From: Candidatus Nomurabacteria bacterium
Lineage (GTDB): Bacteria; Patescibacteriota; Saccharimonadia; Saccharimonadales; VXPC01
Reading direction: 5' to 3'
Assembly: GCA_020631905.1 (NCBI GenBank)
Contig: JACKGQ010000002.1
Span: 789-64,788 of the forward strand
Length of the DNA stretch: 64,000 bases
This document shows, in pieces, positions 5,812-60,665 of the stretch (position 1 is its first letter; every line of letters begins with the position of its first letter). The notes beneath the pieces were generated by a model. That model saw only the letters and a program-made list of their open reading frames with translations, was not told where the DNA came from and searched no databases. A program made the translations under genes and the position numbers.

Positions 5812-6249
5812 TTAAATATCGAGATCGTCGAGATCGGCTAGTTCTTTGCGAGCCTTATCGGCAACGCTTTCGGTGGCCTCTTCTGGTTCAACCACATCGT
5901 CCGAAGTAGACGCATCAGCTGCATCATCCGCTGGCTTCGCGCTAGACGAGCTATCGTCTGAACCCCATGCGCCTTGGCTGCGACCAGAACTCATTTTTGG
6001 CTCACCGTTATCGGCGATTTTAAGATTATAACGGGCATCGTTCTTTGTGCCTAAAGCGCGAAGAAGTGTGCGGATACTCTGAGCGGTTGCTCCACGTTTA
6101 CCAATAACACGTCCGAGATCTTCTTGATCGACTTCGAGCGTTAAGAGGACTCCTTTTTCATCTATTTTGCGGTCTACCTTTACCTTGTCTGGCTGGCTGA
6201 CGATCGACTTTACTACATATTCAACAAAATCTTGGTCAATATTCGACAT
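5812..6249 (-). CDS. KH-domain RNA-binding protein (YlqC/UPF0109-like) with acidic C-terminal tail
   Basis: KH core LGRVIGKRGATAQSIRTLL. Conserved position between rpsP and trmD. The C-terminal ~60 aa are S/D/E-rich. Confidence 0.85.
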   Translation of the reverse strand: MSNIDQDFVEYVVKSIVSQPDKVKVDRKIDEKGVLLTLEVDQEDLGRVIGKRGATAQSIRTLLRALGTKNDARYNLKIADNGEPKMSSGRSQGAWGSDDSSSSAKPADDAADASTSDDVVEPEEATESVADKARKELADLDDLDI

Positions 6250-6408
6250 ACTGCACCTCTCCTACTATTAATGTAACTACATTATACCACTCGCTCAATA
6301 CATTTCGAACTGCCTGATCTTAAGGGGTGAGAGGAAAGATGTTAAGGTTTGAGTAATAACCATTTTTTCTGTTTTCGTTAGCACAAAATTATTAATCGCA
6401 TATTTTTG

Positions 6409-6441
6409 AAATTTAATTTAAATTTAATTTAAATTAAATTT
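6409..6441. repeat. 33-bp all-A/T repeat, 3 x 11-bp units (copy 1 of 3)
   Basis: AAATTTAATTT AAATTTAATTT AAATTAAATTT followed by CCAC. Unit B is the reverse complement of unit A. Near-identical copies at 29937-29969 and 40984-41016. Confidence 0.9.
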
Positions 6442-6480
6442 CCACTTCGTACTTAAACTGTTATTTAAGTAAAATTTACA

Positions 6481-6508
6481 AAAAAAGAGCCAAATTGACT
6501 CTTTTTTT
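6481..6508 (-). terminator. rho-independent terminator after rpsP
   Basis: Minus strand reads AAAAAAAGAGTCA-ATT-TGGCTCTTTTTT (7-bp stem with one G-U pair, then a T-run). Confidence 0.6.
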
Positions 6509-6528
6509 GTAAACTATTCGGTATATTC

Positions 6529-19738: not shown

Positions 19739-21802
19739 CTAGCTCAAGAATTCTTTGAGCCGACTTGCTCCAAGTGAAGGATGCCTTAATCTACCCAAGG
19801 CTCGTTCTTGAATTTGACGAATGCGCTCTCGAGTCACTCCGTAGTCCTCGGCGATTTCTTCGAGGGCTTGTGGCTTATCTGTGCCAATCCCAAACCTTTT
19901 TCGAAGGATATCCTGCTCTCTTTTATCTAATCGAGACAAAATATTCTCTAGTTCATCTGCTACTACAGCTACTTCGGCGATTACCTCTGGATCAACAGCA
20001 TTTCGATCCGCCACCATATCGCCAATAACCGTATCTTCGCCTTCTTTTAACGGCGCATCTAGCGAGATTGGAGTAGTTCCAAATCGTATTGCTTCGATAA
20101 CTTTATCTAGTGGCATACCAGTTTTCGCAGCAATTTCTGCATGTGTAGGTTTTCTGGCGAGCTCGGCTTCGAGTCCGAGGCTAGCTTTGCGAACCCTATT
20201 TAGGTTATCGCCAGCATGCACCGGTAGTCTCACCAAATTGCCGGTGTTAGCAATACCTCTGGTTATTGCCTGTCTTATCCACCAGGTCGCGTACGTACTA
20301 AACTTAAAGCCTTTTTGTTCGTCGAATTTATCTACCGCGTGCATTAAACCGAGGTTACCTTCTTGAATGAGGTCCAACAGAGGCAGGCCTGATGATTGGT
20401 ACCGCTTGGCAATCGAAACTACCAGTCTTAAATTGGCCTTTACAAAAGCTACTTTAGCGGCTTCGCCGTCTTTGATAGCTCTTTCTAGCTGCCTAGTTCT
20501 GGATGGGCTTAGTGTATTCGATGTGCTAAGTTCATTAGAAGCCTGTATGCCCACCCTTACCGTGTTGCCAAGCATAACTTCTTGATCGTGTGTTAATAAT
20601 GCGTGTCTTCCAATCTCTTTCAGATAACGCCCTACAAGATCATCATCTTGGCCATTTTTACTATCTCTTCCATTACCCCTACCGGTGCTTTGCTTCTTGT
20701 TATTAGTTGACGAGCCACCCTTGGGTTTCAGTGATTTAGGAGTAGGATTTTTAGGACTGGCCGTGTATGTAGGTGGTCTTTTTGGTTCGGCCAGTGCAAA
20801 TATCTGCATAATATGGTCGGCTCTACCTGTGGCCTGTTCGCTCAACCGGGCTAGTAGTGTTGTTTTAAGCAGCTCAAACTCGGCAGCAAGCTCGGGATTT
20901 ATTACCCTTGGGCACACTTGTGTGGACGAAATTATTAGCTGCTTGCCAGTACGCGCCTGATATAACTTATTGATAGCCCTAGCACGGCTCGAAACAACAT
21001 AGCGTGGATCTCTGACTCCAATCATATCAAGTTTCTCTAACTCTTCTGTAATTTCCACAAAAGTTCGCTTGCCATCTAACAGCCCCATAACCAGAGCGGA
21101 TTCTTCCAACGACTGCCAAAAACGAACTAAGAATTCTTCTTGAGTGTCTCTATCTAAAGCTAGTTCTTCGTTATGGTTAGTTGTGGCTGGCGACATATCT
21201 GCTACACCAAGGTCACTGCTTTGTTCAGACATAAATATTTTTCTGGCTTGATCAAGCTTTCTCCGGTTAGGTCTTGTTCGCTTTACGCGTACTTCGACAG
21301 GAATATGTGTGTAGTCGGCCTGATATCCTGGGTCGTAAGTCTCGGCAACTGCCTCTGTCATGAATTCGGTTGGGTCTGCACCCTGGACTGTTGGCAGCAT
21401 GACATCCCTCAGATCGACGAACTGCTGGCCAAGTTTTGGATTGGCCGAGTACGGACCATGGAAATCTGGTTTGATGATTATTGGTTGGCCGTACCTAAGT
21501 TCAAAAAACTCATTTAGTCGATCCATAGTCCTTGCAACAGACACCTGTGCCGAGTTAGCATTTTCAAATCTCGGACCTTCAACTTCTCCGATATCGCTAA
21601 GGGCCACACAGCCTATTAATACTTCTCGGACTACTTGTGTTTTGTTTCTTTCTCCATTAATCAGACCCACAACATAGCGAGCTAGCTCGAGTTGTTTTCT
21701 TGGGATACTCCTAACTAGATCTCCAGCCCATTCCGGAGTGCTGTTAGCCTCACATTCTATATCTGTAGTCATGCTCGCTAAAGTATGCTGAAATTCTGGC
21801 AA
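19739..21802 (-). CDS. rpoD: primary-type sigma-70 factor with ~390-aa N-terminal extension
   Basis: The C-terminal ~290 aa carry regions 1.2-4 (YLKEIGRHALLTHDQE, LRLVVSIAKRY, DLIQEGNLGLMHAVDKFD, YATWWIRQAITR, EEIAEDYGVTRERIRQIQERAL). The start is uncertain (TTG at 21802 or ATG at 21772). Confidence 0.92.
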   Translation of the reverse strand: MPEFQHTLASMTTDIECEANSTPEWAGDLVRSIPRKQLELARYVVGLINGERNKTQVVREVLIGCVALSDIGEVEGPRFENANSAQVSVARTMDRLNEFFELRYGQPIIIKPDFHGPYSANPKLGQQFVDLRDVMLPTVQGADPTEFMTEAVAETYDPGYQADYTHIPVEVRVKRTRPNRRKLDQARKIFMSEQSSDLGVADMSPATTNHNEELALDRDTQEEFLVRFWQSLEESALVMGLLDGKRTFVEITEELEKLDMIGVRDPRYVVSSRARAINKLYQARTGKQLIISSTQVCPRVINPELAAEFELLKTTLLARLSEQATGRADHIMQIFALAEPKRPPTYTASPKNPTPKSLKPKGGSSTNNKKQSTGRGNGRDSKNGQDDDLVGRYLKEIGRHALLTHDQEVMLGNTVRVGIQASNELSTSNTLSPSRTRQLERAIKDGEAAKVAFVKANLRLVVSIAKRYQSSGLPLLDLIQEGNLGLMHAVDKFDEQKGFKFSTYATWWIRQAITRGIANTGNLVRLPVHAGDNLNRVRKASLGLEAELARKPTHAEIAAKTGMPLDKVIEAIRFGTTPISLDAPLKEGEDTVIGDMVADRNAVDPEVIAEVAVVADELENILSRLDKREQDILRKRFGIGTDKPQALEEIAEDYGVTRERIRQIQERALGRLRHPSLGASRLKEFLS

Positions 21803-29864: not shown

Positions 29865-29868
29865 AATT

Positions 29869-29895
29869 AAAAACCCGCTTATCTAGCGGGTTTTT
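29869..29895 (+). terminator. rho-independent terminator after tRNA-Ala
   Basis: AAAAACCCGC-ttatcta-GCGGGTTTTT. Confidence 0.8.
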
Positions 29896-29936
29896 AATAA
29901 TATTAAGCCCAATTTATTTGATGAATTGTAGGCCTT

Positions 29937-29969
29937 AAATTTAATTTAAATTAAATTTAAATTGAATTT
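29937..29969. repeat. 33-bp all-A/T repeat, 3 x 11-bp units (copy 2 of 3)
   Basis: AAATTTAATTT AAATTAAATTT AAATTGAATTT followed by CCAC. Confidence 0.9.
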
Positions 29970-40786: not shown

Positions 40787-40966
40787 CTAGTTTTCTTGCC
40801 AGTCTTCGACAACTAGTTTTTGGCCAACTCTTTTAATGACTAGTTTCTGGCCTTGTTGCCAATGAAGCTCACGGACAAGTGATAGTGGTAGGGTTACCAA
40901 ATAAGTGCCGTTGCTGTTTTTGATTAGTTTGCGCTCGGCTTCTTTGCCAGATTGGACTGTTCCCAT
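40787..40966 (-). CDS. AbrB/MazE/SpoVT-type DNA-binding protein (59 aa; absent from ORF track)
   Basis: AAGGGGA-8 nt-ATG. MGTVQSGKEAERKLIKNSNGTYLVTLPLSLVRELHWQQGQKLVIKRVGQKLVVEDWQEN*. The YLVTLPLSLVRELHWQQGQKLVI block fits the SpoVT-AbrB consensus (s-x-x-vtiPkeireelglkeGdkl). Confidence 0.62.
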   Translation of the reverse strand: MGTVQSGKEAERKLIKNSNGTYLVTLPLSLVRELHWQQGQKLVIKRVGQKLVVEDWQEN

Positions 40967-40983
40967 TGTCTTCTTCCCCTTAG

Positions 40984-41016
40984 AAATTTAATTTAAATTA
41001 AATTTAAATTAAATTT
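40984..41016. repeat. 33-bp all-A/T repeat, 3 x 11-bp units (copy 3 of 3)
   Basis: AAATTTAATTT AAATTAAATTT AAATTAAATTT. It lies 17 nt upstream of the AbrB-like start codon. Read on the minus strand, it is identical to copy 1 read on the plus strand. Confidence 0.9.
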
Positions 41017-41057: not shown

Positions 41058-41252
41058 CTAGATATCAGAACCGCTCGATAATTTCCTGGCAACTAGTACG
41101 CCAACTATGCCGCCAATGGTTGAGCCCAAAATTCCCCAGCCGGACATCCAGGAAGTATCGCCGAGCAAAGTTGGTATATAGCCGCCAATCCCGGCAAAAA
41201 TCGACATACAAATATAAAGTACCGTTTTATTCATAATCATATTGTACATCAA
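41058..41252 (-). CDS. small membrane protein (start uncertain)
   Basis: Two Gly-rich hydrophobic segments (ICMSIFAGIGGYIPTLLG, GILGSTIGGIVGVLVA). Confidence 0.4.
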   Translation of the reverse strand: MMYNMIMNKTVLYICMSIFAGIGGYIPTLLGDTSWMSGWGILGSTIGGIVGVLVARKLSSGSDI

Positions 41253-41303: not shown

Positions 41304-41480
41304 TTATATATTGCCAATTATCCAGATAGCACCGGCTATTGCTAAAAAGAATAGCCCTAGGCCTACTGGTGAACCCCAACTAAACCAGCTACCCCAGGCT
41401 CGCCAATGCTTTAAGCTGTTTTCATGACTCCAGTTATATTCCTTCTCGTAGTCATGGTTGCTCTTAGTTTTGTTCTGCAT
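41304..41480 (-). CDS. small Trp-rich membrane protein (58 aa; absent from ORF track)
   Basis: MQNKTKSNHDYEKEYNWSHENSLKHWRAWGSWFSWGSPVGLGLFFLAIAGAIWIIGNI*. A terminator follows directly downstream. It competes with the plus-strand ORF 41242..41427, which has no such support. Confidence 0.4.
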   Translation of the reverse strand: MQNKTKSNHDYEKEYNWSHENSLKHWRAWGSWFSWGSPVGLGLFFLAIAGAIWIIGNI

Positions 41481-56944: not shown

Positions 56945-58782
56945 TGACAACCGTATATATCAATGGTGCGGCCATTCGCCTGACCTCCTCGATGGCACTC
57001 GGGAAAGGTGGTGAAGCGGACGTTTACAAGTACAAAGGCCAAGCCCTGAAGTTGTACAAAGCACCGAATCACCCAGATTTTGTGCACACGCCATTTGAGC
57101 GTGACGCAGCTACTCGGCGGCTACAGCTTGCCCAGACTAAGCTTCCGGCTTTCCCGACAGGTCTGCCTTCGCAGATCATCGGGCCAGACGAACTGGTCAT
57201 GGACAAGAATGGCAAGATCGTCGGGTTCACAATGCCGTTGATCGATGGTACCGTACCGCTCAAACGCTACGGTGAGCGTAGCTGGCGTGATAGCCAAGCT
57301 TTCGACCACCAAGCGGTCTTGCAGATCTTCACCGATCTGCATAGTACATTGAGTGCGGTACATAACCATGGCATGGTAATTGGTGACTTTAACGATCTTA
57401 ACGTCTTGATCAAAGACGACCAAGCGTTCCTAATCGACGCCGATAGCATGCAGTATGGCCAGTACCCGTGTACGGTTTTCACGACACGCTTCGCCGACCC
57501 CCTGATTCTCACCGAGGATCAAGGACAGTTAACGATGGCGCGCTCGTTTTCGACCACAACGGATTGGTATGCCTACGCTGTCATGTTGATGCAATCACTG
57601 GTCTACGTCGACCCGTATGGGGGCGTTTTCCGGCCAGCGGACAAAAAACATCAGCTGGCTGCCAGCCTGCGACCGTTGCACAGGATAACCGTTTTCCACC
57701 CGGAAGTCCGCTATCCAAAGCCAGCCCTACCGCTAAACGTTTTGCCACTTGCCTTGAGTGAATATTTCCACGAAGTGTTCGTTAATGATCTCCGCGAGGA
57801 GTTCCCCACCGATCTTCTGGACTCCTCGCTCTGGACACAGCGAACGTTGGCTCTAAGTGCCATACGTACCCCGCAGACCGTAAGTGGTGATGTTGTCGTT
57901 ACCGTGTTGTTCGATGCATCCGACCACCGGATTTTGGCTGTCGGTTACTTCAAGCAAGGCATGGTCTGGCTGACGCATGATGGTTCGTGTTACCAGCGCG
58001 AATCGGATCGCTTTAGGCTCGACGGCCCACTTGATGGGAGTGTTCGCTTCCAGCTGGCTGGCAACACCACCTTGATGGCCAAGCATGGCCGGCTGATTAT
58101 CTTCAACCCAGATGGGACGAAGGAGATCAAGTCGGTTGACAGTGTTGGCCAGTTGCCGGTAATCGCCAGCAACAGCCAGCACGTCTTCTGGGTTAAGGAC
58201 GGCCTGCTAATGCGTCGTGGTCGCTTCGGCGACTCGGCAGTTGGCCAGGTCTTGCGCGATCAAACCGTAATTTGGGCAGGTGAGACATTCGGCTTCGGCT
58301 ACTACCGCGCCGGCGAACTCGAGCAGGCTTTCCTGTTCGACACCAACGGTCGTGGTATTAACGACAATTTCTCGCTCTCGCCTATTCCGGGAAATTTGAT
58401 TGACATGACGGCCACGTTTAGTGACTCGCTCGTGTGGTTCTTTGCTGCCTTCATGCACGGCGGCCAGGAATATCGCAAGATTAGCGTAATCGACCACCAC
58501 GGCAACGTGTTGGTTGATGAAACGCAAGACTACGCCGCCGACGGCTGGCACGCCAACATTCGCGGCTTTGCAGCTGCTGGCAGTCTGTTGTTTGCGGCAA
58601 CCGATGAAGGCCTGGTGCGTATCGAGATCGTGGCCGGAAAGCTCAAGGTAACTCAGCGTTACCCAGACACCGAACCCTACCTCGACCACACTAGTCGGCT
58701 CTTCACCCATGCGAAGGGGATCTTCGCCGTCACCCATGGTCAGATCATCGATCTGGCCCTCAAACCGAAAGGAACACCATGA
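56944..58782 (+). CDS. protein kinase-like domain with ~330-aa C-terminal non-kinase domain
   Basis: Gly-loop LGKGGEADVY, Lys ALKLYK, catalytic loop GDFNDLNVLI, DFG-equivalent LIDADS. The start overlaps the phosphatase stop (TAATG). Confidence 0.8.
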   Translation: MTTVYINGAAIRLTSSMALGKGGEADVYKYKGQALKLYKAPNHPDFVHTPFERDAATRRLQLAQTKLPAFPTGLPSQIIGPDELVMDKNGKIVGFTMPLIDGTVPLKRYGERSWRDSQAFDHQAVLQIFTDLHSTLSAVHNHGMVIGDFNDLNVLIKDDQAFLIDADSMQYGQYPCTVFTTRFADPLILTEDQGQLTMARSFSTTTDWYAYAVMLMQSLVYVDPYGGVFRPADKKHQLAASLRPLHRITVFHPEVRYPKPALPLNVLPLALSEYFHEVFVNDLREEFPTDLLDSSLWTQRTLALSAIRTPQTVSGDVVVTVLFDASDHRILAVGYFKQGMVWLTHDGSCYQRESDRFRLDGPLDGSVRFQLAGNTTLMAKHGRLIIFNPDGTKEIKSVDSVGQLPVIASNSQHVFWVKDGLLMRRGRFGDSAVGQVLRDQTVIWAGETFGFGYYRAGELEQAFLFDTNGRGINDNFSLSPIPGNLIDMTATFSDSLVWFFAAFMHGGQEYRKISVIDHHGNVLVDETQDYAADGWHANIRGFAAAGSLLFAATDEGLVRIEIVAGKLKVTQRYPDTEPYLDHTSRLFTHAKGIFAVTHGQIIDLALKPKGTP

Positions 58783-59825
58783 GTCTCGTACTCCCAAACT
58801 TCTACCAACCGACCAATGCTGAGGTCTGGGGCTATAACCCGGACATTCAGGCACTGGCAGGCGTTGCCGAGCAGTACCGACAGGACAACAAGATCCTGCC
58901 GGCCGCCGGTGATCGCCGTCGGATCGAGCTGCTGCTGATCGATTTGCAGGGTGACTTTACCTATCCGGAAGGCACTCTGTATGTCGGCGGTCGCTCTGGT
59001 CGTGGGGCGATCGAGGATATTCAGCGAGTTGCGGAGTTCATCTACCGTAACCTGGATGTCATCACCAACATCACTACCACCCTGGACACGCACTTCGCCT
59101 TCCAGATCTTCTTCCCCTGGTTCTGGCAGAACGCCGCCGGCAATTCACCGGCAGCGCACACCATCATCACCACGGAAGACATTCGGAAGGGTGTCTACAC
59201 GCCCAACCCGGCTGTCGCCGGCCTGTTGGTCGGCGGCAACTACCAGTGGCTGCTCAAGCAGGTCGCATTCTATGTGGCCGAGCTCGAGCGAGCGGGCAAG
59301 TACCAGCTTTACCTCTGGCCGCCGCACACTCTGCTGGGCAGCGTCGGTCACGTCCTGAACGGCGTGATCCACGAAGCGCGGATGTTCCATGCGCTGACTC
59401 GCTTCAGCCAGTCGGGTTCGGAGATCAAGGGCGGCAATGCGCTGACCGAGAACTACTCCGTGCTCCGACCGGAGGTGCTGATGCGCTGGGACGGCGAACC
59501 GCTGGACCAGAAGAACACCCGCTTCATCGAGTCGCTCCTCGAGAACGACTACGTCGTGATCGGCGGCGAGGCCGCCAGCCACTGCGTCAGCAGCTCGATC
59601 GACGATCTGCTCGGCGAGATCCTGGCCAAGGACCCGGCACTGGCCGCCAAGGTTTACATCTTGGCGGACTGCATGTCGGCAGTCGTCGTGCCCGATGGCA
59701 ACGGCGGCTTCCTGGCCGATTTCACGCCGCAGGCAGAGGCCGCTCTCGAGCGCTTCCGTCAGGCCGGCATGCACGTGGTCAAGTCGACCGATCCGATCAC
59801 TTCCTGGCCGGACTTCCGGCTCTGA
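58779..59825 (+). CDS. nicotinamidase/isochorismatase-superfamily cysteine hydrolase (enlarged, PncA-like)
   Basis: Catalytic Asp LLLIDLQGDF, Lys block IKGGNALTENYS (compare E. coli PncA HKGENPLVDSYS), Cys GGEAASHCV, metal-site-like LDTH and LWPPH. ATGA overlap with the kinase stop. The most GC-rich gene by eye. Confidence 0.72.
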   Translation: MSLVLPNFYQPTNAEVWGYNPDIQALAGVAEQYRQDNKILPAAGDRRRIELLLIDLQGDFTYPEGTLYVGGRSGRGAIEDIQRVAEFIYRNLDVITNITTTLDTHFAFQIFFPWFWQNAAGNSPAAHTIITTEDIRKGVYTPNPAVAGLLVGGNYQWLLKQVAFYVAELERAGKYQLYLWPPHTLLGSVGHVLNGVIHEARMFHALTRFSQSGSEIKGGNALTENYSVLRPEVLMRWDGEPLDQKNTRFIESLLENDYVVIGGEAASHCVSSSIDDLLGEILAKDPALAAKVYILADCMSAVVVPDGNGGFLADFTPQAEAALERFRQAGMHVVKSTDPITSWPDFRL

Positions 59826-59835
59826 CATACACCCC

Positions 59836-59869
59836 GGCTGGACAGGTTCATTCTTGTGCCTGTCCAGCC
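59836..59869 (+). promoter_or_regulatory. intercistronic 11-bp perfect hairpin
   Basis: GGCTGGACAGG-12 nt-CCTGTCCAGCC, between the hydrolase stop and the vWA start. No U-tract. Confidence 0.6.
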
Positions 59870-59891
59870 ACCGCTTTCGAAAGAAGGAACA

Positions 59892-60665
59892 ATGAGCGAT
59901 TCAATCACCGACCTCTTCGCCGACGCCGTCGATGAAGGGGCTCTCACCAAGGCATCCCTGCGGGTACTCGCCACCCCGGACATCAACACCAAGCTCCAAG
60001 CTGCCATGGGCGTTGATGTCGACAATGTCATGGCCAGCGAAGTCGTCTTGGTCAACATCCTGATGGACAACTCTGTCTCGATGGGGCCGATGAAGGCTAC
60101 GGCCATGGATGGTCAGAACGAGGTCGTCGACGCCCTCCTGGCGACCAAGGAGGTCGACGGTGTGCTGATGCTGAGCACATTGCTCAACGGTGGGGCAGTT
60201 GGTGGCTACCAGCCGCTGGACACATCGTCCAAGCTGGACGCCAAGACCTACCGCATCACCGGCAACACACCACTGTACGAACGAACAGTCGATGTCTTGG
60301 CTGCCATGGTCGCCAAGACGCAGGCTTTCGTCAACGGTGGTGTGCCCGTCCGAACGATCACCCTGATCGTGACTGATGGTGGCGACAACGCTTCCAGGCA
60401 TACCTCGGCCGATGTCAAGCAGGTGGTTACCGACCTCACCAGGCAGGAACACCACATCATTGCCGGCATGGGTATCGACGACGGATACACCGACTTCGTG
60501 GACGTGTTCACGGGCATGGGGATTCCCGATCAGTGGATCCTGACACCCGGCAATTCCAAGAGCGAGATTCGGGCAGCGTTCCGAGTCTTCTCGCAGTCGG
60601 CTGTGCGTGTCAGTCAGTCGGCCGCCAGCATGAGCCAGGTCGCCCTCGGCGGCTTCGGCACCTGA
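59892..60665 (+). CDS. von Willebrand factor A (vWA, TerY-like) domain protein
   Basis: MIDAS residues LMDNSVSM (D-x-S-x-S), GNTPLY (Thr), LIVTDGGDN (Asp). GAAGGAAC-a-ATG at 59892. Confidence 0.8.
   Translation: MSDSITDLFADAVDEGALTKASLRVLATPDINTKLQAAMGVDVDNVMASEVVLVNILMDNSVSMGPMKATAMDGQNEVVDALLATKEVDGVLMLSTLLNGGAVGGYQPLDTSSKLDAKTYRITGNTPLYERTVDVLAAMVAKTQAFVNGGVPVRTITLIVTDGGDNASRHTSADVKQVVTDLTRQEHHIIAGMGIDDGYTDFVDVFTGMGIPDQWILTPGNSKSEIRAAFRVFSQSAVRVSQSAASMSQVALGGFGT

What the first reader, a model, noticed from the sequence alone, without database searches (positions are those of the whole stretch)
40787..41016. 33-bp all-A/T palindromic repeat (3 x 11 bp) directly upstream of an unannotated AbrB-like gene
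Seen: AAATTTAATTT-AAATTAAATTT-AAATTAAATTT (40984-41016) lies 17 nt upstream of the start codon of a 59-aa ORF missed by the ORF track (40787-40966). The core of that ORF (YLVTLPLSLVRELHWQQGQKLVI) fits the SpoVT-AbrB DNA-binding fold. The two unit types are reverse complements of each other, so a unit A followed by a unit B forms a perfect 22-bp palindrome. The 11-bp period is close to one helical turn. Near-identical copies occur at 6409-6441 and 29937-29969. All three are intergenic, and each has a gene start within about 20-170 nt on one side.

Inference: this may be a phased-A-tract (curved DNA) element, or an operator for a small dimeric or tetrameric regulator. The adjacent AbrB-like protein is the obvious candidate, since AbrB-type proteins favour AT-rich targets.
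Basis: partly seen in the sequence, partly recalled or inferred. Interest (0 to 1): 0.55.

Follow-up and report, generated by a model that had tools for sequence, protein, structure and literature searches.

The report
Likely operator of a small AbrB-type regulator
A 33-bp all-A/T palindrome made of three 11-bp units is most likely the binding site (operator) of the tiny AbrB-type DNA-binding protein encoded next to it in a Saccharibacteria genome; such a regulator-plus-operator pair is ordinary, and the only unusual point is that identical copies of the site sit at a few unrelated intergenic places.

Summary
Three copies of a 33-bp all-A/T element lie at 6409-6441, 29937-29969 (one mismatch) and 40984-41016. 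Each is a perfect 16-1-16 palindrome made of three 11-bp palindromic units, AAATT-W-AATTT. The genome is about 46% GC and belongs to Candidatus Saccharibacteria.

The 59-aa ORF is a real gene. It belongs to a small stand-alone SpoVT-AbrB family that is widespread in CPR/Patescibacteria (2,726 relatives). The AF2 model and Foldseek hits match MazE, AbrB and SpoVT. No toxin partner is present.

The key evidence is comparative. In 8 of 8 independent lineages, including the syntenic orthologue, the family gene has its own 24-38-bp palindrome 9-66 nt upstream of the ATG. The sequence differs between lineages. Most resolve into three 11-12-bp units and overlap or abut the -10 hexamer. This resembles the three-dimer mazEF operator.

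The copy at 40984-41016 is therefore most likely an autoregulatory operator. Binding itself was not tested.

The curved-DNA reading fails, because A-runs recur every 5.5 bp and the wedge model gives 17 degrees. The other two copies are lineage-specific additions that lie just downstream of terminators, and their role is uncertain. Identical copies occur at non-orthologous sites in one other Saccharibacteria species.

This is a new member of a known kind and of modest interest.

The parts
40984..41016 (.). Copy 3 of the 33-bp all-A/T palindrome (3 x AAATT-W-AATTT). Proposed autoregulatory operator of the adjacent AbrB-type gene, at -50 to -18 relative to its ATG.
   Evidence: The architecture matches the operators upstream of seven other family members.
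40787..40966 (-). 59-aa stand-alone SpoVT-AbrB-fold DNA-binding protein; proposed binder of the palindrome.
   Evidence: Pfam PF04014 E=0.0024, below the gathering threshold. 125 representative relatives. 54 of 60 relatives hit PF04014, best E=3e-11. The family profile's best PDB matches are AbrB-N domains. AF2 model pLDDT 83.6 with beta-beta-alpha-beta-beta order. Foldseek top hits are MazE, AbrB, SpoVT and VapB at TM 0.6-0.72.
40970..40981 (-). Shine-Dalgarno region (AAGGGGAAGAAG on the minus strand) between the operator and the ATG.
   Evidence: Read directly from the sequence.
40985..40995 (-). Two overlapping TAAATT hexamers (-10-like) inside the ATG-proximal unit of the palindrome. These are the candidate core promoter that the operator would occlude.
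   Evidence: Read from the sequence. No better -10 lies between the palindrome and the SD, and the promoter scan found none elsewhere nearby. This is an inference, not a demonstrated promoter.
6409..6441 (.). Copy 1, a perfect palindrome. It lies between the rpsP terminator (6475-6513) and the khpA promoter (6281-6308), 160 nt upstream of the khpA ATG.
   Evidence: It is absent from the orthologous spacer in the nearest relatives L026 and L027.
29937..29969 (.). Copy 2, with one mismatch (G at position 28). It lies 38 nt after the tRNA-Ala terminator (29866-29898) and 34 or 77 nt before the start of an unknown 253-aa ORF.

Best explanation
The 33-bp palindrome at 40984-41016 is the operator of the 59-aa SpoVT-AbrB-fold protein encoded 17 nt downstream of it on the minus strand.

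Proposed mechanism (inferred, not shown):
- The protein forms swapped-hairpin dimers.
- One dimer sits on each 11-bp palindromic unit AAATT-W-AATTT, giving three dimers in a row on one face of the helix. This mirrors the three MazE dimers on the mazEF operator.
- The complex covers the only -10-like hexamers upstream of the gene and so represses its own transcription.

The two other copies in the window (6409-6441, 29937-29969) and the two in Saccharibacteria MAG ASO77 are additional full-strength sites for the same kind of protein. They were added to intergenic DNA in this lineage, just downstream of the terminators of rpsP, tRNA-Ala and dnaK. Their most likely effect is to place the downstream genes under the same control, or to act as a protein roadblock against read-through. 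This part is much less certain.

What is shown: the repeat structure, the fold of the protein, conservation of the family, and the family-wide link between the gene and an upstream three-unit palindrome.

What is inferred: binding, stoichiometry, repression, and any function of the extra copies.
For: 1. The ORF is a real, conserved gene.
- 125 cluster representatives at E<=1e-3, nearly all 50-65 aa.
- 2,726 proteins at E<=1e-5; those that carry a source name are CPR/Patescibacteria.
- Near-invariant residues R12, P27, W36, Q40, D55 and W56.

2. The fold is SpoVT-AbrB.
- 54 of 60 relatives hit PF04014.
- The profile's best PDB hits are AbrB-N domains, with the AbrB R8-equivalent arginine aligned.
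- AF2 model pLDDT 83.6; Foldseek top 20 hits are all MazE, AbrB, SpoVT or VapB.

3. Comparative footprint. All 8 independent lineages examined have a 24-38-bp palindrome or repeat ending 9-32 nt before the family gene's ATG. The lineages are the window, L030, L031, L032, L035, L038, L040 and L042, the last being the syntenic orthologue. The sequence is different in each lineage. L038 has AAATACGTATTT x3, exactly the window's architecture.

4. Periodicity. 7 of 8 elements resolve into three 11-12-bp units.

5. Control. Perfect palindromes with arms >=11 occur only about once per 5.5 kb in those loci, and the others are mostly GC-rich terminators.

6. Position. The elements overlap or abut -10 hexamers, which is the position expected for a repressor.

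7. Precedent. The E. coli mazEF operator has three consecutive MazE-dimer sites (PMC4333400). MraZ binds four tandem boxes (PMC12957436).

8. The window gene has no other candidate operator upstream.
Against: - There is no binding or expression data.
- Family proteins that are 70-80% identical to one another (P0269, P0277, P0308, P0290) sit next to very different palindromes. Either specificity is set by few residues, or recognition depends on DNA shape, or another factor reads the sites.
- Copies 1 and 2 lie 37-100 nt upstream of the likely promoters of their downstream genes, which is not a classical repressor position.
- Copy 1 is absent from the orthologous spacer in relatives.
- Four of the five known sites (three here, two in ASO77) are identical over all 32 arm positions and the fifth has one mismatch, and no degenerate sites exist. 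This looks more like recent copying than like a diverged regulon.
- ASO77 carries the identical 33-mer at non-orthologous sites (hpf-secA and dnaK-helicase). No family gene occurs in the 16 kb I hold from it, and no protein more than 56% identical to the window protein exists in the 50%-identity representative library.
Confidence: 0.55

Rival explanations
1. The 33-mer is a REP/MITE-like selfish palindromic repeat that spreads through intergenic DNA. Its position upstream of the AbrB-type gene is coincidental.
For: - The copies are near-identical and all-or-none, with unrelated flanks.
- Copy 1 is a lineage-specific addition inside a spacer that has expanded from 100-117 bp to 279 bp.
- The identical sequence occurs at non-orthologous sites in a second species.
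- Short-read assemblies break at it.
- All five sites lie between co-directional genes, three of them 37-75 nt downstream of a clear intrinsic terminator, which is where REPs typically sit.
Against: - 8 of 8 family members have a palindrome at this exact position, so chance placement is unlikely, and the window gene would otherwise lack an operator.
- No transposase, RAYT or integrase is encoded in the window.
- There is no GTAG-type flanking motif and no target-site duplication.
- The density is low (3 per 64 kb).
- The exact T-W-A palindrome occurs in no metagenome contig, no viral contig, and only one other species among 185,579 representatives.
Confidence: 0.15
2. The 33-mer is the binding site of a different, unidentified DNA-binding protein shared by the window strain and ASO77, for example a nucleoid-associated or minor-groove-binding protein. 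The AbrB-type protein is only one of its targets.
For: - ASO77 has identical sites, but no close homologue of the 59-aa protein is detectable.
- AAATT/AATTT tracts have narrow minor grooves, which AT-hook and H-NS-like binders favour (established knowledge).
- The sites lie at variable distances from promoters.
Against: - The family-wide pairing of the gene with its own upstream three-unit palindrome points to self-recognition.
- No candidate alternative binder was identified.
- The ASO77 gene set could not be examined, so the absence of the family there is not established.
Confidence: 0.15
3. The element acts without a dedicated protein, as intrinsically curved or easily melted A/T DNA. It would serve as an UP-like promoter module, a bidirectional weak promoter, or a cruciform-forming insulator.
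For: - It is 100% A/T in a 46% GC genome.
- It contains several TAAATT and TTTAAT hexamers, and one flank-plus-repeat combination scores as promoter-like.
- A perfect A/T palindrome can extrude a cruciform under negative supercoiling (established knowledge).
Against: - Predicted curvature is low: 17 degrees, below the shuffled mean, because A-runs recur every 5.5 bp.
- Composition or curvature alone does not explain exact conservation of all 33 positions across copies and across species.
- Operators of other family members are not all A/T-rich (63-83% A/T) yet share the same architecture.
Confidence: 0.08
4. The element works at the RNA level, as a hairpin that terminates, stabilises or processes transcripts.
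For: It folds into a 15-16-bp A-U hairpin of about -12 kcal/mol, z = -3.7 to -6.2. It lies downstream of genes.
Against: - The stem is all A-U and no U-tract longer than 3 follows it. The terminator scan finds nothing there.
- Copies 1 and 2 and the L004 copy already lie downstream of canonical GC-rich terminators.
- In several family members the -10 hexamer lies downstream of the palindrome, so the palindrome is not transcribed.
Confidence: 0.05

Closest known systems
E. coli MazE and the mazEF 'cab' operator (SpoVT-AbrB-fold antitoxin as autorepressor)
   Same: - The same DNA-binding fold: Foldseek top hits 2mrn and 1ub4, TM 0.65-0.72.
- The operator lies just upstream of the regulator's own gene and consists of three consecutive dimer sites (PMC4333400).
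   Different: - There is no toxin gene and no C-terminal toxin-binding tail; the protein is the 59-aa domain alone, and neighbourhoods vary.
- The units are 11-12 bp, near-identical and themselves palindromic, whereas only site 'a' of mazEF is a perfect palindrome.
- Extra copies of the operator exist elsewhere in the chromosome.
Bacillus subtilis AbrB/Abh/SpoVT transition-state regulators
   Same: - The N-terminal swapped-hairpin domain, with the AbrB R8-equivalent arginine aligned.
- AbrB represses its own promoter and prefers A/T-rich targets (established knowledge).
   Different: - AbrB is about 94 aa and has a C-terminal multimerisation domain that this protein lacks.
- AbrB targets have no strict consensus, whereas these sites are identical perfect palindromes.
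Archaeal stand-alone SpoVT-AbrB proteins (Sso7c4, 2l66; 'histone-like' 5itj/5itm; C56 of pSSVi, 7xi6)
   Same: - A single-domain protein of about 50-60 aa with the same fold.
- Sso7c4 is a swapped-hairpin homodimer (PMC3159460 abstract).
   Different: - Sequence similarity is only marginal (E 0.07-0.2).
- The archaeal proteins are described as chromatin-like, not as operator-specific regulators.
- The family studied here is bacterial, from CPR.
MraZ (SpoVT-AbrB superfamily) on tandem boxes upstream of the dcw operon
   Same: A superfamily member that binds a short array of evenly spaced repeats directly upstream of its own gene (PMC12957436).
   Different: - MraZ has two fused domains, forms octamers or larger assemblies, and binds direct repeats rather than palindromic units.
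- MraZ has a fixed dcw context, whereas this family has variable neighbours.
REP/REPIN/BIME and MITE-like intergenic palindromic repeats
   Same: A short (about 35 bp) palindrome in multiple near-identical copies, located intergenically and downstream of genes and terminators.
   Different: - Low copy density.
- No RAYT or transposase in the window and no flanking GTAG motif.
- The palindrome is perfect and internally tripartite.
- One copy occupies the operator position of a DNA-binding protein gene.

Membership tests
SpoVT-AbrB superfamily DNA-binding domain (Pfam PF04014) | Significant sequence match to the family profile | tested here: met
   The window protein alone falls below the gathering threshold (18.2 vs 24.7 bits, E=0.0024). 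However, 54 of 60 aligned relatives match PF04014 with best E=3e-11, and the family profile's best PDB hits are AbrB-N domains.
SpoVT-AbrB superfamily DNA-binding domain (Pfam PF04014) | beta-beta-alpha-beta-beta half-barrel (swapped-hairpin) topology | tested here: met
   AF2 model pLDDT 83.6 with elements E14-16, E22-24, H28-33, E42-47 and E50-55. The top 20 Foldseek hits are all MazE, AbrB, SpoVT or AbrB-type VapB, at TM 0.6-0.72.
SpoVT-AbrB superfamily DNA-binding domain (Pfam PF04014) | Homodimerisation that completes the barrel and forms the DNA-binding face | not testable with these tools
   Only monomer prediction was available. Dimerisation is inferred from the fold.
Type II toxin-antitoxin antitoxin (MazE/PemI/AbrB-type VapB) | Cognate toxin gene (MazF, PIN, Doc, etc.) adjacent in the same operon | tested here: not met
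   The downstream 182-aa ORF has no Pfam or NCBIfam hit. The neighbours of eight family members are unrelated to one another and include no toxin family.
Type II toxin-antitoxin antitoxin (MazE/PemI/AbrB-type VapB) | C-terminal toxin-neutralising extension | tested here: not met
   The protein is 59 aa and the family is 50-65 aa. The whole length is the DNA-binding domain.
AbrB-type transition-state regulator (AbrB/Abh) | C-terminal multimerisation domain (about 94 aa in total) | tested here: not met
   The 59-aa protein ends right after beta-4.
Autoregulatory operator of a SpoVT-AbrB-fold repressor | Palindromic or repeated site overlapping the regulator gene's own core promoter | tested here: met
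   In the window the site lies at -50 to -18 from the ATG and contains the only -10-like hexamers. In the seven other lineages the site overlaps or abuts a -10 hexamer. The promoters are predicted, not mapped.
Autoregulatory operator of a SpoVT-AbrB-fold repressor | Specific binding of the protein to the site | not testable with these tools
   This needs EMSA, footprinting or DAP-seq.
REP/REPIN elements | Associated RAYT (IS200/IS605-like) transposase and a conserved flanking tetranucleotide | tested here: inconclusive
   No such gene occurs among the window ORFs and no conserved flank motif was found. The rest of the genome could not be searched.
REP/REPIN elements | High copy number, tens to hundreds per genome | tested here: inconclusive
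   There are 3 copies in 64 kb here and 2 exact copies in the whole ASO77 representative genome. Copies with mismatches could not be counted genome-wide.
Phased A-tract (intrinsically curved) DNA | A-tracts repeated in phase with the helical repeat (about 10.5 bp), producing net curvature | tested here: not met
   A-runs start every 5-6 bp. The wedge model gives 17 degrees, against 24.7 +/- 12.6 for shuffles and 64.6 for the A4T4 control (parameters were recalled from memory but validated on the Hagerman controls).
Intrinsic (Rho-independent) terminator | G+C-rich stem followed by a U-tract | tested here: not met
   The stem is all A-U (about -12 kcal/mol) with no U-run longer than 3. The terminator scan gives no hit at any copy.

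The most novel reading that the evidence does not exclude
The operator of a minimal CPR regulator has become 'portable'. Exact 33-bp copies would have been inserted just downstream of the terminators of highly expressed genes (rpsP, tRNA-Ala, dnaK) and near hpf in at least two Saccharibacteria species. There, the bound AbrB-type protein would act as a roadblock or insulator, or would recruit new genes into its regulon. In genomes with very few transcription factors, a regulon would then grow by copying an operator rather than by point-mutational drift.
Probability: 0.2. Interest if true: 0.6.

Novelty: new member of a known kind. Interest (0 to 1): 0.35.

Why it matters
CPR/Patescibacteria have tiny genomes and very few recognisable transcription factors, and almost nothing is known about how they regulate genes.

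This analysis gives a concrete, testable pair of regulator and operator: a roughly 58-aa stand-alone AbrB-fold family with 2,726 detected members and a three-unit, roughly 36-bp operator. The operator sequence differs between lineages, so the family forms a natural specificity series for a minimal DNA-binding domain.

The finding is otherwise conventional, since autorepression by a SpoVT-AbrB-fold protein is textbook. The identical extra copies at unrelated intergenic sites in two species are the only unusual element. They also explain practical assembly breaks in short-read MAGs.

Tried and rejected
- A relaxed two-unit pattern search hit only A/T-rich giant-virus contigs by chance, so it was too unspecific.
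- The metagenome scan with W at the unit centres gave 8 loci. All were in unrelated A/T-rich contexts with other centre combinations, and none was the T-W-A palindrome.
- The exact palindrome has 0 hits in viral contigs.
- The motif does not appear in the literature library, and no paper links AbrB with Saccharibacteria or Patescibacteria.
- Rfam finds only the two tRNAs in the window and nothing in the ASO77 loci.
- Looking for a larger element around the copies (MAFFT and short-word BLAST of masked flanks) found nothing shared, no TIRs and no TSDs.
- An HMM search of six-frame translations for paralogues of the AbrB-type gene near copies 1 and 2, or in ASO77 loci, found none.
- Looking for extra copies of the other lineages' operators within +/-10 kb found none. 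The test has little power, because the window's own extra copies are 11 and 34.5 kb away.
- The search for related loci with the family alignment failed because the alignment is too diverse.
- I tried to tie the closest relatives to ASO77 through cluster membership, without success.
- Divergence between the window strain and ASO77 could not be measured, because the loci I hold share no genes.
- The curved-DNA, terminator and TA-antitoxin readings were each tested and rejected (12-14 and 31; 52-66).

Full report
**Observation.** The sequence is as described. AAATTTAATTTAAATTAAATTTAAATTAAATTT lies at 40984-41016. Its exact reverse complement, differing only at the central base, lies at 6409-6441. 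A one-mismatch copy (G at position 28) lies at 29937-29969. None of 100 dinucleotide-preserving shuffles gave any match. The 33-mer is a perfect 16-1-16 palindrome, and each of its three 11-bp units AAATT-W-AATTT is itself a palindrome. The window averages about 46% GC, so a 33-bp all-A/T block is a sharp outlier. The flanks of the three copies share nothing. Beyond the three full copies, the window holds only chance-level partial matches. The element is therefore all-or-none.

**Source and context.** The window matches Candidatus Saccharibacteria assembly GCA_020428525.1 at 99.985% identity, and Logan contigs at 100%. Two of those short-read contigs begin inside the palindrome, which is typical of assembly breaks at a multi-copy repeat.
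- Copy 1 lies between the terminator of rpsP and the promoter of a KhpA-type KH gene.
- Copy 2 lies 38 nt after the tRNA-Ala terminator and upstream of an unknown ORF.
- Copy 3 lies between a small membrane ORF and the 59-aa ORF, 17 nt from its ATG, with an AAGGGGAAG Shine-Dalgarno sequence in between.
- The window encodes ordinary housekeeping genes (rpoD, FemAB, a Mur ligase, ligA, rnc, nusB, trmD) and no transposase or integrase.

**Distribution of the palindrome.**
- Among 185,579 species-representative genomes, the exact palindrome occurs only in one other Saccharibacteria MAG, ASO77 (about 50% GC). It occurs there twice: between hpf and secA, and between the dnaK terminator and a RecD2/Pif1-like helicase gene.
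- It is absent from viral contigs.
- The relaxed three-unit pattern found only 8 metagenome loci. All have other unit-centre combinations and lie in unrelated A/T-rich DNA.
- At the orthologous rpsP-khpA spacer, the two nearest relatives (KhpA 79% and 74% identical) have a 100-117-bp spacer. It contains a terminator and the conserved TGnTATAAT promoter plus AGGAGAGGTGCAGTATG, but no palindrome. The window's spacer is 279 bp. Copy 1 is therefore a lineage-specific addition and is not needed for the khpA promoter.

**The 59-aa ORF.**
- On its own it scores below the Pfam threshold for PF04014 (E=0.0024), and the word-index search finds only itself.
- The exhaustive HMMER search finds 125 cluster representatives, nearly all 50-65 aa and 40-56% identical.
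- Their alignment has near-invariant R12, P27, W36, Q40, D55 and W56.
- 54 of 60 members hit PF04014, with best E=3e-11.
- The profile's best PDB matches are AbrB N-domains, archaeal stand-alone AbrB proteins and MazE, with the AbrB R8-equivalent arginine aligned.
- An AF2 model (pLDDT 83.6) has the beta-beta-alpha-beta-beta order. Its top 20 Foldseek hits are all MazE, AbrB, SpoVT or AbrB-type VapB, at TM 0.6-0.72.
- A profile search finds 2,726 proteins at E<=1e-5. Those with a source name are CPR/Patescibacteria: Pacebacteria, Woesebacteria, Magasanikbacteria, Vogelbacteria and Saccharimonadales.
- Gene neighbourhoods differ from lineage to lineage and contain no toxin family. The protein is the bare domain, so it is not a type II antitoxin.

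**The decisive comparative result.** I read the DNA upstream of the family gene in seven further independent lineages. Every one has its own long palindrome or repeat close to the ATG:

| Locus | Upstream element |
|---|---|
| L038 | AAATACGTATTT x3, a perfect 36-bp palindrome |
| L031 | AATTCAGTATTTAATTCATGAATTAAATACTGAATT, a perfect 36-bp palindrome |
| L040 | 15-bp arms around TTCTAGAG |
| L032 | TACGTA repeated three times at 12-bp spacing |
| L035 | TTACGTAAT-type unit, three times |
| L030 | TATATAATTAAT-type unit, three times |
| L042-L044 | TAAATCAGCTTT\|AAAGCTGATTTA, abutting TGgTATACT |

L042-L044 carry the positional orthologue. Synteny is AbrB-like, small ORF, lemA, M48 peptidase, an unannotated ORF, then ligA, as on the window's minus strand.

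- Seven of the eight elements resolve into three 11-12-bp units.
- They overlap or abut -10 hexamers.
- As a control, perfect palindromes with arms >=11 occur about once per 5.5 kb in these loci, and the others are mostly GC-rich terminators.
- The architecture is conserved while the sequence changes with lineage. This is the signature expected of a cognate operator.
- It matches the mazEF precedent of three consecutive MazE-dimer sites (PMC4333400) and, more loosely, MraZ on tandem boxes (PMC12957436).
- The window gene has no other candidate operator.

**Mechanism proposed.** Swapped-hairpin dimers of the 59-aa protein bind one per 11-bp unit, three in a row. They cover positions -50 to -18 and the only -10-like TAAATT hexamers, and so repress the gene's own transcription. 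The fold, the family and the gene-operator association are shown. Binding, stoichiometry and repression are inferred.

**The extra copies.** Copies 1 and 2, and the two in ASO77, are not at classical repressor positions. They lie about 25-100 nt upstream of the likely promoters where these could be predicted; the L003 (hpf-secA) copy is 237 nt from the secA start and its promoter was not placed. Copies 1 and 2 start 37-38 nt after a canonical terminator and the L004 (dnaK) copy about 75 nt after one; no clear terminator was seen upstream of the L003 copy. Their near-identity, all-or-none form, non-orthologous placement in two species and absence from relatives point to recent copying rather than an old regulon. 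They may place downstream genes under the same protein's control, act as roadblocks against read-through, or be nearly neutral dispersed copies. I could not decide between these.

**Rivals.**
- Curved DNA is rejected. A-runs recur every 5.5 bp, and a wedge model that reproduces the A4T4 and T4A4 controls gives 17 degrees, below the shuffled mean.
- A terminator or RNA-hairpin role is unlikely. The stem is all A-U at about -12 kcal/mol with no U-tract, canonical terminators already precede several copies, and in several lineages the -10 lies downstream of the palindrome.
- A REP/MITE-like selfish repeat remains possible for the dispersal, but it does not explain the operator-position coincidence.
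- A different binder shared with ASO77 cannot be excluded.

**Verdict.** The system is a new member of a known kind: an autoregulated SpoVT-AbrB-fold repressor with a tripartite operator, here a stand-alone CPR family. The one unusual feature is that exact operator copies are dispersed to other intergenic sites. Interest is modest.

Noticed in passing
L002 1-27; L025 1-27 (equivalent to window 40984-41010 and 6415-6441): Two independent short-read (Logan) contigs of the same strain begin inside the 33-mer. The repeat breaks k-mer assemblies, and this may fragment Saccharibacteria MAGs at such sites.
   Followed up: partly
window 6475-6513 and 29866-29898: Copies 1 and 2 both start 37-38 nt after a canonical intrinsic terminator (rpsP and tRNA-Ala). 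The ASO77 copy in L004 lies about 75 nt after the dnaK terminator. This may indicate terminator-proximal placement or targeting.
   Followed up: partly
window 6249-6308; L026 560-606; L027 1825-1874: The khpA promoter and leader (TGnTATAAT ... AGGAGAGGTGCAGTATG) are almost identical in three Saccharibacteria whose KhpA proteins are only 74-79% identical. The leader and SD are unusually conserved.
   Followed up: no
L030 2986-3003; L031 2636-2650; L035 2980-3003; L040 9987-10003: In several CPR family members, a good -10 hexamer lies only 8-15 nt before the ATG and there is no Shine-Dalgarno sequence. This suggests leaderless or near-leaderless mRNAs for this small gene.
   Followed up: no
L042 8077-8119 and L044 2642-2684: A 43-bp perfect palindrome (20-bp arms, AAGCTCTGCAATCCAAAAGC-AGA-GCTTTTGGATTGCAGAGCTT) lies between the 141-aa ORF and lemA in two assemblies. 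It is absent from the otherwise syntenic L043.
   Followed up: no
window 58001-60000: GC content rises to 0.595 against a window mean of about 0.46. The ORFs there (58779-59825, 59856-60665) have no Pfam hit, and long ORFs overlap on both strands. This may be foreign or compositionally unusual DNA.
   Followed up: no
window 19739-21802 (-): The primary sigma factor (RpoD regions 1.2-4) is 687 aa long and has an N-terminal extension of about 385 aa with no Pfam match.
   Followed up: no
window 41058-41252 (-) and 41304-41480 (-): Two tandem ORFs of about 58-64 aa encode small hydrophobic proteins directly upstream of the AbrB-type gene. Neither has a family match. No terminator separates the nearer one from the palindrome, so co-transcription is possible.
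   Followed up: no
P0269, P0277, P0308, P0290 (L035, L030, L031, L040): Family proteins that are roughly 70-80% identical to one another sit next to quite different palindromes (TTACGTAAT-type, TATATAATTAAT-type, TTCATGAATTAA-type). Specificity must depend on very few residues or on DNA shape.
   Followed up: partly
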